A program made the translations under genes and the position numbers. Below are positions 862 to 44,906 of a stretch of DNA of 64,000 nucleotides, piece after piece (positions within the stretch are counted from its first letter, which is position 1; each line of letters starts with the position of its first letter). This DNA is from an uncultured Clostridia bacterium (lineage in GTDB: Bacteria > Bacillota > Clostridia > Christensenellales > UBA1242), in NCBI GenBank assembly GCA_944362965.1, contig CALVTR010000006.1:27855-91854 (forward strand), read 5' to 3'. A model generated the notes under the pieces. The model ran no database searches and was not told the DNA's origin. It was given only the letters and a program-made list of their open reading frames with translations.

Positions 862-961
862 GCCCGAGAATTTAAAAACTCGGAACGAGTTTTTAAAGAC
901 AAAACATGCGTTTTGCCTTTTGAAAGAAAACGCAAAAGCGTTTTCTTTCACATTCTCGGGC
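862..961. repeat. Cloverleaf-like palindromic intergenic element, copy 1 (outer stem plus three internal hairpins)
   Basis: Outer stem GCCCGAGAAT (862-871) / ATTCTCGGGC (952-961). Inner hairpins: AAAAACTCG-gaa-CGAGTTTTT (874-894), CAAAAC-atgc-GTTTTG (900-915), TGAAAGAAAACGC-aaaa-GCGTTTTCTTTCA (921-950). Confidence 0.7.
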
Positions 962-1134
962 AAGCCACACCGCTGACGCGGGAGTGAAGAGTGAAAAATG
1001 AAGAGTGAAAAGAGAGTAAGGACGGAATTTATAAAACGGAACAGAAAAACTAGGCGTTATGGACACGCAGGACGATAGTGAGCGGATAATTCGTCCGCTC
1101 TTTTAAATTTTTACAATAAGCCTTAGGTATAGTA

Positions 1135-1266: not shown

Positions 1267-1407
1267 ATAAGTTGAAGTGAAAAAGGAAGGGGTATATAAG
1301 GAAATTATAGATAAAACTTTTCATATAAAGCGGAAATATAAAAATTTATCAATATAAGCTTAAGTTCGCAAATTTTTTTAATTTTTTTAAAAATTTGCTA
1401 AAAATAG

Positions 1408-1435
1408 TTGATAAACATTGCGGGGGGGGTATAAT
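1408..1435 (+). promoter_or_regulatory. Sigma-A-type promoter with a G8 homopolymer in the spacer (candidate phase-variable promoter) for ORF 1526-2095
   Basis: TTGATA (1408-1413), 16-nt spacer AACATTGCGGGGGGGG (G8 at 1422-1429), TATAAT (1430-1435). AGGAG RBS precedes the ATG at 1526. Confidence 0.55.
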
Positions 1436-1525
1436 AAGCTAACTTAAAAATATAATATCATTTTTATTGCCCGAAGATGATTTGTAGGTTTTTAAGTTAA
1501 TTTATTATAAAAGGAGAAAAAGAAT

Positions 1526-2095
1526 ATGAGTTTAAAATTAAAATTGGCAATGAGTATAAGTGCCTTTTTCTTAGTTCTTGCAATGCTTGTCACAGGCGTG
1601 TTTGCAGCAAGGAACTTAGAGCTTAACTTTGGTGGCACAATAAACTTTGAAGGTGTCAATGGCGAAATTGACGCACTTGTTACAGGAACAGTAACAAACA
1701 CTGCCACACCAATCACACTAGAAGATATATCAATAGAGCAAGGAACTGAAACAGTCACCGTTCCACTATCATGGCAAAACCTAGACTTAACTTTTACAGA
1801 TATCAACCTAATAATTGTAGCAATATATGTTCAGAACAGACGTTCTGATAGAAATTTAAATGCAACTATATCTATGGAAGGGATTGCGATGGAGACTGGT
1901 GTTGGAGAAGATAATGTATATGGTTATACTTTTACTACTGGAACACAACGGGCTCAAACTAAAACGCTTAATCTTACACCAAACCAGTCAGATAGTGTTG
2001 CATTTAGCATACGTATTGTCGATAGATTCACACCTGTTGACAATGTCAACGTAACATTTACAATTTCATTGCAAGATGCAGAGCCAACAGATTAA
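1526..2095 (+). CDS. Secreted or surface hypothetical protein (N-terminal signal peptide)
   Basis: AAAGGAG RBS. N-terminus MSLKLKLAMSISAFFLVLAMLVTGVFAA is signal-peptide-like; the rest is T/N/V-rich and looks beta-rich. A terminator follows. No family recognised. Confidence 0.6.
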   Translation: MSLKLKLAMSISAFFLVLAMLVTGVFAARNLELNFGGTINFEGVNGEIDALVTGTVTNTATPITLEDISIEQGTETVTVPLSWQNLDLTFTDINLIIVAIYVQNRRSDRNLNATISMEGIAMETGVGEDNVYGYTFTTGTQRAQTKTLNLTPNQSDSVAFSIRIVDRFTPVDNVNVTFTISLQDAEPTD

Positions 2096-2116: not shown

Positions 2117-2146
2117 TAAAGACAGGAAGGGCAACCTGTCTTTTTT
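2117..2146 (+). terminator. Rho-independent terminator
   Basis: AAAGACAGG-aagggcaa-CCTGTCTTT followed by a T-run. Confidence 0.6.
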
Positions 2147-2261
2147 AATTTACATTTTGTCTATATATTTTTAATTTCTAAACAATATCAATAAAAATAA
2201 AAATTTTAATTAAAACAAAAAACTCTCATACTAATTTGTATAAGAGTTTTTATTTAACAAT

Positions 2262-21498: not shown

Positions 21499-21892
21499 TG
21501 AAAAAGGTTGGGCAATATGCCCAACTTTTTTATTGTGGCAAAAAAGTTAATTTACGACCTTCGGGTTATATCGAGCATTTTAAATTTTTTTTTCATAAGA
21601 ATAAATAAACAAAAAGCACGGCTGAATAAATAGACAAAATAGACGCGAGATATAATCTCGTTTTCGGTCGTTGGTTCAAATCCAACTCCCGCAACCATAA
21701 AAAGTTGGGCGTTTTGCCCAGCTTTTTTATTGCGGCAAAAAAGTTAATTTACGACCTTCGGGTTATATCGAGCATTTTAAATTTTTTTCATAAGAATAAA
21801 TAAACAAAAAGCACGGCTGAATAAATAGACAAAATAGACGCGAGATATAATCTCGTTTTCGGTCGTTGGTTCAAATCCAACTCCCGCAACCA
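21499..21892 (+). repeat. Two ~195-bp tandem units, each ending in a 32-nt tRNA-fMet 3'-end fragment
   Basis: GGTCGTTGGTTCAAATCCAACTCCCGCAACCA at 21666-21697 and 21861-21892. Each unit also holds a terminator-like hairpin and an inverted anticodon-arm fragment TTACGACCTTCGGGTTAT (21552-69, 21749-66). Confidence 0.8.
21507..21531 (+). terminator. Displaced native tRNA terminator
   Basis: GTTGGGC-aatat-GCCCAAC followed by T6, immediately after the attR tRNA fragment. Confidence 0.6.
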
Positions 21893-24265: not shown

Positions 24266-24697
24266 TCATCCTGTTTTTTTTTGAGGTTTATTATTGCTAA
24301 AATGAAACAAAGGTATCCATAGAAAAGAACCCATTACAAGACTTAATCCATATGCACCTAAGACATAATAAGTATTTTCTAGATTTTCAGAATTTTCATA
24401 GCTGAACCTTAGTGGTAACGAAGAAGATTTTAAAACAGCCACAGCATTTTCGTCAGACAATGTTTCATTCAATTTTAAAAAATATTCGGCGTCATTTATT
24501 TGCCCAGAACTAAGTTGTTGCTCTAAATCTTTTTGCTCATTTGAAACACTTTCAATATATGTGTCAGTTGTCTTAAAATCACCTAAGATTTCATCTTGAT
24601 TGTTATTTTCAACCGATGAAAGTGGAAAAAACGATACAGCCAATGCACCGCCAGCAGCAAGAACACAAATAGCAACCATAACATTACTTTTAATCAT
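24266..24697 (-). CDS. Hypothetical membrane protein
   Basis: 143 aa with N- and C-terminal TM segments. Confidence 0.45.
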   Translation of the reverse strand: MIKSNVMVAICVLAAGGALAVSFFPLSSVENNNQDEILGDFKTTDTYIESVSNEQKDLEQQLSSGQINDAEYFLKLNETLSDENAVAVLKSSSLPLRFSYENSENLENTYYVLGAYGLSLVMGSFLWIPLFHFSNNKPQKKTG

Positions 24698-42805: not shown

Positions 42806-42948
42806 GATATAAGTGAAAAATGAAAAATGAAGAGTGAAAAGTTTATTTAGCTCCACAAGGGGGGTGGAATAATTGTAGTTTATGTTCTCATGGAACAAGT
42901 AAACTCGGTATTATAGATGCACTAGACGATAGAAAGTGGCTAAGCCAC
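42806..42948 (+). repeat. Mosaic repeat extension: purine-rich block plus a GACGATAG-hairpin module
   Basis: 42821-42841 TGAAAAATGAAGAGTGAAAAG is identical to 992-1012. GACGATAG at 42925-32, then GTGGC-taa-GCCAC (42936-48), which is the inverted match of 63224-63236. Confidence 0.6.
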
Positions 42949-43684: not shown

Positions 43685-44171
43685 TAGTTATTTACTAATA
43701 TTTATGTCGGCTGTTAAAAACCACAATATAAGAATAGATTTTAAAGATGACAACAAAAAATCTCAGGGCTTAGTCAATTAATTTTGATACTAGCGGTATA
43801 AAGGACGCTTTACAACAAAAGATATGGTGTCTTTTATTTTTTCTTGACGGAAAAATAAAACGAATATTTCTGATGTTGTCATAGGTTGTTATTATAATTT
43901 TTTATTTGTAAATTTTTAAACATTCATTTTAACCTTGACAACAAAGAATATTCGCTTATACTAGAATAAGAGAAATAAAAAACAAAAGAGTTGTGTGCGT
44001 ATGATTTTGCCAACACCAACTTTTTCGCTTTAATCTACATTAATTTATGTGTGCTTGTTAGCGAGCCGACTTGTATCAGGACAAGCACATATCTAAATGC
44101 TAAAATAAATATTTTTATAATTTTTTTAAAAATTTGATACAAATTAGAAAATTTTATGGTATTATATAAAT

Positions 44172-44906
44172 ATGAATAAAAGCGCATATGATATAGATAT
44201 TTTTTTGAAAGATTATGTTGATAAGAATAGCAAATTTTCTTTTGACAGAGCACTTGCATTAAAAGAAAAATTCAAATATAAAAAAATAACATCAATATTA
44301 GATTTAGCCTGTGGAACTGGCTTGTTTTTAAATGAAATGGTTAAAAGTTTTGATTTGGAATATGGTGTCGGGGTAGATTTATCAGCAAACATGATAAAGT
44401 ATGCAAAAAAGCACAATCAATCATCAAAACTGAAGTTTGTTAAAGGTGATATGACCAATTTTTCACTTGAAAAGACCTTTGATTTAATCACTTGCAACTA
44501 TGATGCAATCAATCATTTAATTATGTTTGAAGACTGGCAAAAGATGTTTAATAATGTATATTCTCATCTAAAAATCGGCGGGGTTTTTACTTTTGATTAC
44601 AACACGCTTTTAAAACTAAAAAATTTTAGTAGGACTTCTTATTATGAGTATGAAGAATATAATTGCGTATGGCATAACACAAACGAAAATGATAGGTTTA
44701 ATTTCGATTTTTCCTATTATATCAAACAAAAAAATGGGGAGTATAAACTGATAAAATCAAGTCAAATTGAATCAACATTTCCTTATAAATTGATTGCAAC
44801 AACACTTAAACAAATGGGCTTTAAACACATTAAATTTTGCAATAAAGACTTCAAAAAATGTAATCCAAACAAAGTGTTTAGATGTTTTGTTATTTGTGAA
44901 AAATAA
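44172..44906 (+). CDS. Class I SAM-dependent methyltransferase
   Basis: ILDLACGTGLF (motif I), GVDLSANMI, KGDMTNF, FDLITCNYDAINHL. Confidence 0.8.
   Translation: MNKSAYDIDIFLKDYVDKNSKFSFDRALALKEKFKYKKITSILDLACGTGLFLNEMVKSFDLEYGVGVDLSANMIKYAKKHNQSSKLKFVKGDMTNFSLEKTFDLITCNYDAINHLIMFEDWQKMFNNVYSHLKIGGVFTFDYNTLLKLKNFSRTSYYEYEEYNCVWHNTNENDRFNFDFSYYIKQKNGEYKLIKSSQIESTFPYKLIATTLKQMGFKHIKFCNKDFKKCNPNKVFRCFVICEK

What the first reader, a model, noticed from the sequence alone, without database searches (positions are those of the whole stretch)
1408..1435. G8 homopolymer in the -35/-10 spacer of a secreted-protein gene: phase-variation candidate
In this AT-rich sequence, an uninterrupted G8 run (1422-1429) sits exactly between a TTGATA -35 and a perfect TATAAT -10, giving a 16-nt spacer. 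The promoter drives a signal-peptide protein (1526-2095).

Established knowledge: slipped-strand changes in homopolymer length within promoter spacers switch surface-protein expression in several bacteria. One extra G would give the optimal 17-nt spacer.

I saw no other G or C run of this length in the window.
Basis: partly seen in the sequence, partly recalled or inferred. Interest (0 to 1): 0.6.

Follow-up and report, generated by a model that had tools for sequence, protein, structure and literature searches.

The report
Poly-G promoter switch, gut Clostridia
An uncultured chicken-gut Clostridia bacterium keeps an unbroken run of eight G's between the two recognition boxes of the promoter of a small variable surface-protein gene; the run is conserved across species but differs in length between strains, so it is probably a slippage-driven expression dial like those of Neisseria, Treponema and Mycoplasma, although switching itself has not been shown.

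Summary
TTGATA (1408-1413), a 16-nt spacer ending in G8 (1422-1429) and TATAAT (1430-1435) precede a 189-aa gene. It is the only G/C run of 7 or more in the 64-kb window.

The run is selected for. Orthologues in several species keep the architecture TTGACA-N8-G(n)-TAnAAT at the same uvrD/gyrA locus. gyrA is only about 80% identical between two of these species.

The run length varies. In the window's own species it is G8 in 8 samples, G7 in 4 (on at least two SNP backgrounds) and TG6 in 2. In a sister species it is G6 against G7, and that is the only indel in 1.5 kb of 99.7-99.8% identical DNA.

The same promoter, with G7 to G11, heads paralogous and unrelated surface-protein genes (LRR proteins, DUF6273 proteins, lipoproteins). 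The protein has a near-invariant N-terminal half and a hypervariable C-terminal half.

Best reading: slipped-strand transcriptional phase variation or expression tuning (confidence 0.6).

Caveats:
- No raw reads were available.
- An apparent G7/G8 mixture within one sample turned out to be a paralogous promoter.
- Near-clonal assemblies mostly keep G8.
- T9 control tracts also vary between strains.
- The transcription start is unmapped.

Verdict: a new member of a known kind.

The parts
1366..1407 (+). A/T-rich block of phased A and T tracts just upstream of the -35 box (UP-element-like)
   Evidence: Conserved in the orthologues. A 91% identical copy lies at 44111-44144, in front of another promoter (family D14). 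Its function is inferred.
1408..1413 (+). -35 hexamer TTGATA. It is TTGACA in most strains and in all other species.
   Evidence: The 1412 T>C variant is seen in runs X2, X3, X4, X18 and X20.
1414..1421 (+). Non-repeat part of the spacer, AACATTGC. The (T/A)TGC next to the tract is invariant.
   Evidence: Alignment A2.
1422..1429 (+). G8 homopolymer, the variable part of the spacer
   Evidence: Length variants G7, TG6 and G6 in strains and relatives.
1430..1435 (+). -10 hexamer TATAAT
   Evidence: It is TAnAAT in all relatives.
1442..1525 (+). Predicted 5' leader of about 84 nt. The start near 1442 is inferred from the -10 box and is not mapped. It contains a hairpin at 1457-1481 with the conserved loop UUGCCC, and the Shine-Dalgarno AAGGAG at 1511-1516.
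   Evidence: MFE -13 kcal/mol, z = -1.8, which is a weak signal. The sequence is conserved in A2. RNAalifold on a poor alignment found no pairs.
1526..2095 (+). 189-aa gene. It encodes an N-terminal hydrophobic helix (a signal peptide or membrane anchor, MSLKLKL...TGVFAA) followed by a 9-strand beta-sandwich. Residues 1-110 are near-invariant in the family; residues 111-189 are hypervariable.
   Evidence: alignment A1; AlphaFold model with pLDDT 79.9; no Pfam or NCBIfam hit.
2118..2150 (+). Intrinsic-terminator-like hairpin plus T-run that closes the single-gene unit

Best explanation
The G8 run is a simple-sequence contingency tract inside the spacer of a sigma-70-type promoter.

Proposed mechanism (inferred): slipped-strand mispairing during replication adds or removes G's. 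[quoted passage not shown] Transcription of the single-gene unit 1526-2095 would change with it.

The product is a small secreted or membrane-anchored beta-sandwich protein. Its N-terminal half is constant and its C-terminal half is hypervariable.

G8 (16 nt) is most likely an expressing state, and G7/G6 are reduced or off states.

The locus is one member of a set of surface-protein genes in this Clostridia lineage. All carry the same promoter design with their own G tract, so each gene could be dialled independently.

Shown here:
- the anatomy of the promoter;
- conservation of the tract across species;
- length polymorphism between strains and between paralogues;
- surface-type genes downstream of the shared promoter.

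Inferred, not shown:
- that this promoter is the one used;
- that tract length changes expression;
- that switching is frequent and reversible.
For: 1. Anatomy. The tract sits exactly between TTGAYA and TAnAAT.

2. Selection keeps the run.
- Every orthologous or paralogous copy recovered whose contig reaches the promoter keeps an uninterrupted G run at the same place.
- The family proteins are only 51-78% identical to the window's.
- Window against L004: gyrA is 79.5% identical at the nucleotide level, and about 40% of the codons for identical residues in the N-terminal half differ.
- The genome is 34% GC and has no other G/C run of 7 or more in 64 kb.

3. Length varies while the flanks do not.
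- L020 (G6) against L022 and L023 (G7) are 99.7-99.8% identical over about 1.5 kb. The tract is the only indel.
- In the window's species the tract is G8 in the window, L002, X1, X3, X14, X5, X8 and X11. It is G7 in X2, X4, X7 and X20. It is TG6 in X18 and X28.
- G7 occurs on at least two different SNP backgrounds (X2-type and X4-type). X3, which has G8, shares downstream variants with X2, which has G7. This points to recurrent change.

4. Paralogous promoters vary too.
- The L035-type locus is G7 in L035, X1 and X5, and G8 in X8 and X27.
- L014 is G7 and L043 is G8 at the same locus.

5. The design is family-wide.
- The promoter TTGACAAAnnTGC-G(n)-TAnAAT, with G7, G8, G9 (the commonest; 17-nt spacer) or G11, precedes several kinds of gene: proteins with the same MSLxxKL signal, BspA-type LRR proteins, DUF6273 proteins, a GH25/SH3 lipoprotein and another lipoprotein.
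- One MAG carries two copies (L025 and L026).

6. Protein variation. The N-terminal 110 residues are near-invariant and the C-terminal 80 are hypervariable. This is the pattern of a variable surface antigen or receptor.

7. Precedent. Poly-G between -35 and -10 with an optimum at 17 nt in T. pallidum tp0126 and N. meningitidis porA (PMC7864442). Poly-A in the promoters of all M. hyorhinis vlp genes (PMC10502178).
Against: - No read-level data were available; only Logan contigs could be laid. Switching within a clone is therefore untested.
- The apparent G7/G8 branch in run X1 is a paralogous promoter with a different downstream sequence. It is not heterogeneity at this locus.
- Assemblies that are 99.9% or more identical almost always share G8: 6 of the P0008 type, 3 of the P0010 type, 3 of the P0009 type and the window group. 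The consensus state is therefore stable, or strongly selected.
- The control T9 tracts at 24274 and 21585 also differ in length between the same strains. Between-strain variation alone does not show unusual mutability.
- G9, the textbook optimum, was never seen at this locus.
- The transcription start is unmapped. The only RNA evidence is one 151-nt metatranscriptome contig over 1516-1666.
- The invariant (T/A)TGC next to the tract could mean that a protein-binding motif is being conserved, not mutability.
Confidence: 0.6

Rival explanations
1. The G run is a fixed cis-regulatory or structural element of a family-specific promoter. It could be part of an operator for an unidentified regulator of the surface-protein regulon, or a rigid G:C spacer that sets promoter strength. 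On this reading it is conserved for that role. The G6/G7/TG6 variants are ordinary strain polymorphisms, neutral or mildly deleterious, and not a switch.
For: - (T/A)TGC plus G(n) and the flanking hexamers are conserved as a block across species and paralogues.
- Near-clonal assemblies keep G8.
- T9 tracts vary between strains at a similar rate.
- Interrupted tracts exist and may be tolerated: TG6 in X18 and X28, and G8AG in L039.
- In T. pallidum a CRP homologue acts together with poly-G promoters (PMC7864442), so a regulator and a tract can coexist.
Against: - Any length change alters the -35/-10 spacing, so it cannot be neutral for a sigma-70 promoter.
- Lengths from G6 to G11 occur in otherwise near-identical promoters.
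- G7 arises on at least two backgrounds.
- A protein-binding site does not need an uninterrupted homopolymer in a 34% GC genome.
- No regulator was identified.
Confidence: 0.27
2. The hexamers are not the working promoter. Transcription would start elsewhere, and the G tract would lie in a transcribed leader or act at the DNA or RNA level in another way, for example as a recombination boundary between exchangeable promoter and gene modules.
For: - The transcription start is unmapped.
- The region upstream is full of multicopy palindromic repeats.
- The same promoter half is joined to different upstream and downstream sequences in different loci.
- Several Logan contigs begin inside or next to the tract without a matching upstream flank (X6, X13 and X15).
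Against: - TTGACA and TAnAAT are invariant, and each sits at a fixed distance from the tract, in all copies.
- Terminator-like hairpins lie upstream, at 1080-1100.
- Contig breaks are explained by the shared 31-mers of paralogous promoters.
Confidence: 0.08
3. The G8 run is a chance occurrence, or a sequencing or assembly artefact.
For: A G/C run of 8 or more appears in 4.1% of Markov-simulated windows.
Against: The tract is present in more than 30 independent assemblies and Logan runs from different studies, always at the same promoter position.
Confidence: 0.02

Closest known systems
Treponema pallidum tp0126 and the tpr gene family (poly-G promoter tracts)
   Same: - A poly-G tract lies between -35 and -10, and expression is optimal when the spacer is 17 nt (tp0126).
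- A paralogous family of surface-protein genes (tprE, G, J, F, I, L) each carries its own poly-G in the promoter.
- Tracts of 7-11 G vary within and between isolates (PMC7864442).
   Different: - A spirochaete pathogen with outer-membrane proteins, against a Gram-positive-type commensal Clostridia lineage with SipW-like-signal, LRR and lipoprotein cargo.
- In Treponema, length heterogeneity and reporter effects were measured. Here neither was.
Neisseria meningitidis porA (poly-G) and opc (poly-C) promoters
   Same: A homopolymer in the -35/-10 spacer of a sigma-70 promoter for a single-copy surface protein. Tract length sets high, intermediate or no transcription (as summarised in PMC7864442).
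   Different: - A proteobacterial pathogen.
- A single locus, not a promoter shared by a family of genes.
- The tract is 9-11 G, against 6-8 G here, because here the non-repeat part of the spacer is 8 nt.
Mycoplasma hyorhinis vlp gene family (poly-A tract in the promoter)
   Same: - A gene family with a conserved 5' block (promoter, leader, signal peptide) and a divergent mature region.
- Every member has its own homopolymer in the promoter and is switched independently (Citti and Wise 1995, as cited in PMC10502178).
- This is the closest match to the architecture seen here: conserved 5' half plus variable 3' half.
   Different: - Poly-A, not poly-G.
- Lipoproteins of a wall-less bacterium.
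- The vlp genes are clustered, whereas the copies seen here are dispersed.
- Switching was shown experimentally for vlp.

Membership tests
Promoter-spacer homopolymer phase variation (porA / tp0126 / vlp type) | A homopolymer lies between the -35 and -10 hexamers of a sigma-70-type promoter | tested here: met
   TTGATA-N8-G8-TATAAT. The hexamers and their distance to the tract are conserved in all orthologues and paralogues. The transcription start itself is not mapped.
Promoter-spacer homopolymer phase variation (porA / tp0126 / vlp type) | Tract length differs between closely related strains while the flanks stay the same | tested here: met
   G8, G7 and TG6 occur within the window's species. 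G6 against G7 is the only indel in 1.5 kb at 99.7-99.8% identity. Caveat: T9 control tracts also vary.
Promoter-spacer homopolymer phase variation (porA / tp0126 / vlp type) | Length heterogeneity within a clonal population (high-frequency, reversible switching) | not testable with these tools
   Only assembled Logan contigs were available for the holding runs. The raw-read runs offered were host transcriptomes. The X1 'mixture' was a paralogue.
Promoter-spacer homopolymer phase variation (porA / tp0126 / vlp type) | Transcription depends on tract length | not testable with these tools
   This needs reporter fusions, or RNA paired with DNA from the same sample. The only RNA evidence is one metatranscriptome contig at 1516-1666.
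Promoter-spacer homopolymer phase variation (porA / tp0126 / vlp type) | The controlled gene encodes a surface-exposed or secreted product | tested here: inconclusive
   An N-terminal hydrophobic helix (residues 3-27) is followed by a beta-sandwich. The C-terminal half is hypervariable. Sister promoters drive LRR proteins, lipoproteins and a GH25 protein. Localisation was not measured.
TasA / CalY / BsaA-type SipW-dependent fibre proteins | Match to the family profile (Peptidase_M73/TasA, or the SipW-cognate signal model) | tested here: not met
   No Pfam or NCBIfam hit at E <= 1. The PDB profile search found nothing relevant.
TasA / CalY / BsaA-type SipW-dependent fibre proteins | Fold similar to TasA or to donor-strand-exchange pilins | tested here: inconclusive
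   The best Foldseek hits are FimA-type pilins (E 1e-4, TM only 0.32-0.36) and the archaeal bundling pilus 7ueg (E 1e-2).
TasA / CalY / BsaA-type SipW-dependent fibre proteins | A cognate SipW-type signal peptidase in the genome | not testable with these tools
   None is in the window (tblastn). In another lineage (L033) a G9 promoter lies 599 nt upstream of an archaeal-type signal peptidase I (TIGR02228, 80.7 bits against a cut-off of 51.85).

The most novel reading that the evidence does not exclude
A clade of uncultured, commensal gut Clostridia may run a combinatorial contingency system. A portable expression cassette would head many dispersed surface-protein genes: small beta-sandwich proteins, BspA-LRR proteins, DUF6273 proteins and lipoproteins. 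The cassette would consist of an A/T-tract UP element, TTGACA, N8, poly-G and TAnAAT. Possibly the SipW-type peptidase that processes these proteins is also under such a promoter. Each cell would then display a random subset of these proteins. This would be the first phasome of this type described for Clostridia. It could be a major determinant of phage or immune evasion in the gut.
Probability: 0.35. Interest if true: 0.7.

Novelty: new member of a known kind. Interest (0 to 1): 0.5.

Why it matters
Homopolymer-in-spacer switches are textbook for a few pathogens (Neisseria, Treponema, Mycoplasma). Phase variation described in Clostridia is, to my knowledge, mainly by invertible DNA.

My literature searches found no description of poly-G promoter-spacer switching in Clostridia. 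Only two papers hold all four search terms, and by their titles and abstracts neither concerns such a switch in Clostridia; I did not open them.

If it is real, three things follow:
- Abundant, uncultured gut commensals diversify their surface stochastically, gene by gene.
- Metagenome-assembled genomes report only the majority state of such loci.
- Expression of these surface proteins cannot be predicted from gene presence alone.

The idea is directly testable with amplicon fragment-length analysis and simple reporter fusions.

Tried and rejected
I could not count copies of the promoter in the window's own genome.
- One read-laying run was lost to a filter.

**Within-sample heterogeneity**
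- I first read the contig break at 1399/1428 and the minor G7 contig in X1 as a G7/G8 mixture at this locus.
- Laying a narrow region showed that the G7 contig runs into a different downstream sequence. It is a paralogous promoter of the L035 type.

**Searches for raw reads and RNA**
- The RNA run search returned host single-cell transcriptomes as the only raw-read sets. These are not useful.
- Metatranscriptome contigs gave only one piece, 1516-1666. It carries no information on the transcription start.

**RNA elements**
- Rfam on 650-1600 gave only sub-threshold miRNA-precursor hits to the long palindrome at 1133-1267. There is no riboswitch or leader family.
- RNAalifold on the leader found no consensus pairs, but the alignment was poor. 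The single-sequence hairpin has z = -1.8 only.

**Protein family**
- Pfam, NCBIfam and the PDB sequence profile gave no family for the protein.
- Foldseek matches are weak (TM about 0.35).
- No second family member and no sipW gene lie in the window.

**Other promoter types**
- By eye I considered a sigma-54 promoter (TTGC as the -12 element). I rejected it because there is no GG-containing -24 element at the right distance.
- A G-quadruplex is rejected because there is only a single G run.

Full report
**1. Observation**

- TTGATA at 1408-1413;
- spacer AACATTGC followed by G8 at 1422-1429, 16 nt in all;
- TATAAT at 1430-1435.

This is the best promoter-like site in the first 4 kb, with 11 of 12 matches. 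Downstream lie an A/U-rich leader, the Shine-Dalgarno AAGGAG (1511-1516), an ATG at 1526, a 189-codon ORF ending at 2095, and a terminator-like hairpin at 2118-2143.

The window has 33.9% GC and no other G or C run of 7 or more. The next longest is G6 at 42859, inside an unrelated repeat. A first-order Markov model gives any G/C run of 8 or more in 4.1% of simulated windows. The run alone is only mildly unusual. Its placement and conservation are what count.

**2. Organism and locus**

Public runs that hold the stretch are chicken-gut metagenomes. The only genomes in the species collection that encode relatives are MAGs titled 'uncultured Clostridia bacterium'.

The gene sits between a UvrD/PcrA-type helicase gene (minus strand) and gyrA (minus strand). 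This synteny is kept in the orthologues.

**3. The protein**

- It has no Pfam, NCBIfam or PDB-sequence match.
- The database search found only 17 homologues, at 51-96% identity.
- Their alignment is striking. Residues 1-110 are almost invariant and residues 111-189 are hypervariable.
- The AlphaFold2 model (pLDDT 79.9) shows an N-terminal helix (residues 3-27) followed by a nine-strand beta-sandwich.
- Foldseek finds only weak similarity (TM 0.32-0.36) to FimA-type pilins and to an archaeal bundling pilus.
- From my own knowledge, the N-terminus (…TGVFAARN…FGGT) resembles SipW-dependent signals of TasA/CalY. This is a lead, not a tested membership: the profile test was not met.
- In another lineage (L033) a promoter of the same design lies 599 nt upstream of an archaeal-type/SipW-like signal peptidase I (TIGR02228, 80.7 bits).

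**4. Conservation of the tract**

I took the upstream regions of all recovered loci. Every copy whose contig reaches the promoter has TTGACA, 8 nt ending in (T/A)TGC, an uninterrupted G run, then TAnAAT.

These loci come from several species:
- Window against L004: gyrA is 79.5% identical at the nucleotide level.
- About 40% of the codons for identical residues in the N-terminal half differ.

An eight-base G run would not survive that much divergence in an AT-rich genome without selection.

A more distant relative (L027) encodes an LRR protein with the same signal peptide. Its promoter is TTGACA-17-TAAAAT, with only GGG at the corresponding place. The run therefore appears to have expanded within a pre-existing promoter.

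**5. Length variation**

*Window's species, this locus.*

| Tract | Samples |
|---|---|
| G8 | window/L001, L002, X1 (= L003), X3, X14, X5, X8, X11 |
| G7 | X2, X4, X7, X20 |
| TG6 | X18, X28 (same study) |

Sources. G7 occurs on at least two SNP backgrounds. X2 shares its downstream variants with X3, which has G8. X4 shares its variants at 2006-2015 with the TG6 strain X28. This argues for recurrent change.

*Sister species.*
- L020 (G6) against L022 and L023 (G7) are 99.7-99.8% identical over about 1.5 kb. The tract is the only indel.
- L042 has G7.

*Paralogous promoters.*
- The L035-type locus has G7 in L035, X1 and X5, and G8 in X8 and X27.
- L014 has G7 and L043 has G8 at the same locus.

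**6. Controls and caveats**

- In X1, which has no SNPs against the window, a 5-kb contig runs through the T9 tract at 24274 without a break or an indel.
- Between strains, however, the T9 tracts also change. The tract at 24274 is T8 in X2 and X3. The tract at 21585 is T7 in X2. The G tract is therefore not demonstrably more mutable than long A/T tracts at the between-strain level.
- Assemblies that are 99.9% or more identical nearly always share G8.
- The contig break and minor G7 contig in X1 first looked like heterogeneity within the sample. They belong to a paralogous promoter that shares 1385-1438 and then diverges.
- No raw reads of a holding run were available.
- The only RNA evidence is one metatranscriptome contig over 1516-1666. 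The transcription start is unmapped.

**7. A family-wide promoter**

A pattern scan of metagenome contigs for TTGAYAAANNWTGC-G(6 or more)-N(0-8)-TANAATA returned 13 loci. In 11 of them the variable gap is filled entirely with G.

Tract lengths:

| Tract | Loci |
|---|---|
| G7 | L035 |
| G8 | L040 |
| G8AG (interrupted) | L039 |
| G9 (17-nt spacer) | L030, L031, L032, L033, L034, L036, L037, L038 |
| G11 | L029 |

Genes downstream:
- proteins with the same MSLxxKL…G(V/I)(F/L/W)A signal, carrying DUF6273 or BspA-type LRR domains;
- a GH25/SH3 lipoprotein;
- another lipoprotein.

One MAG carries two copies of the promoter (L025 and L026).

Across about 242 kb of fetched DNA, 34 of the 36 G runs of 7 or more lie in this promoter context. 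Each locus was fetched because of the gene or the promoter, so this count mainly shows that the flanks hold no other such runs.

Earlier notes of this scan report the same module at 13 or more genes in this genome. I could not check that number.

**8. Interpretation**

The most economical reading is transcriptional phase variation, or 'volume control', by slipped-strand changes in a promoter-spacer homopolymer.
- G8 (16 nt) and G9 (17 nt) would be permissive.
- G6, G7 and G11 would be poor.

This is the mechanism documented for:
- T. pallidum tp0126 and the tpr genes, and N. meningitidis porA (PMC7864442);
- M. hyorhinis vlp, with poly-A (PMC10502178).

The vlp family is the best architectural parallel. 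It combines a conserved promoter, leader and signal with a variable mature part, and each gene has its own tract.

The main rival is that the block (T/A)TGC-G(n) is a conserved regulatory or structural element and that the length variants are ordinary polymorphisms. The two readings are not exclusive.

I put 0.6 on the switch, 0.27 on the fixed-element reading, 0.08 on 'not the working promoter' and 0.02 on chance or artefact.

**9. Novelty**

The mechanism is known. The organism class, the gene family and the family-wide promoter in a gut commensal are new as far as I could search. I classify it as a new member of a known kind. This locus is one more copy of a module that the scan has already met elsewhere in the same genome.

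Noticed in passing
window 862-961 and 1135-1266: Two long palindromic or cloverleaf-like elements lie between the helicase gene and the promoter. The summed contig depth there is up to about 10 times that of the gene body, so they are multicopy repeats. Rfam gives only sub-threshold miRNA-precursor hits, that is, a generic long hairpin.
   Followed up: partly
window 983-1012 and 42812-42841: A 30-nt purine-rich repeat, AGTGAAGAGTGAAAAATGAAGAGTGAAAAG, occurs twice at 93% identity in intergenic DNA (family D20). The second copy lies 18 nt upstream of the window's only G6 run.
   Followed up: no
window 1372-1405 and 44111-44144: The A/T-tract block upstream of the -35 box recurs at 91% identity in front of the promoter of a methyltransferase-like gene (44172-44906). 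That promoter has no G tract. The UP-like block is therefore separable from the tract.
   Followed up: no
L032 2702-2736 and L039 3006-3040: In two sister promoters a perfect palindrome, GGGTATCCAAAATAAATTTTGGATACCC, followed by a T-run starts immediately after the -10 box. It could be a terminator- or attenuator-like hairpin at the very 5' end of the leader, or the terminator of a convergent unit.
   Followed up: no
L033 8067-9190: A G9 promoter of the same design lies 599 nt upstream of an archaeal-type/SipW-like signal peptidase I (TIGR02228, 80.7 bits). The sequence between them has no obvious ORF.
   Followed up: partly
window 1426 (runs X13, X15) and about 1419-1423 (run X6): In three runs the contig that carries the gene begins inside or just before the G tract, and no contig matching the upstream flank was laid, even at 30-38x depth in X6 and X15. 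The likely cause is graph tangling by paralogous promoters, but this is not resolved.
   Followed up: partly
window 21585-21593 and 24274-24282: The two T9 tracts differ in length between strains: T7 in X2 at 21585, and T8 in X2 and X3 at 24274. They are useful baseline controls for any claim of homopolymer mutability in this species.
   Followed up: yes
window 1526-2095 (protein alignment A1): There is a sharp boundary near residue 110 between a near-invariant N-terminal half and a hypervariable C-terminal half. This suggests diversifying selection or cassette exchange in the exposed part.
   Followed up: partly
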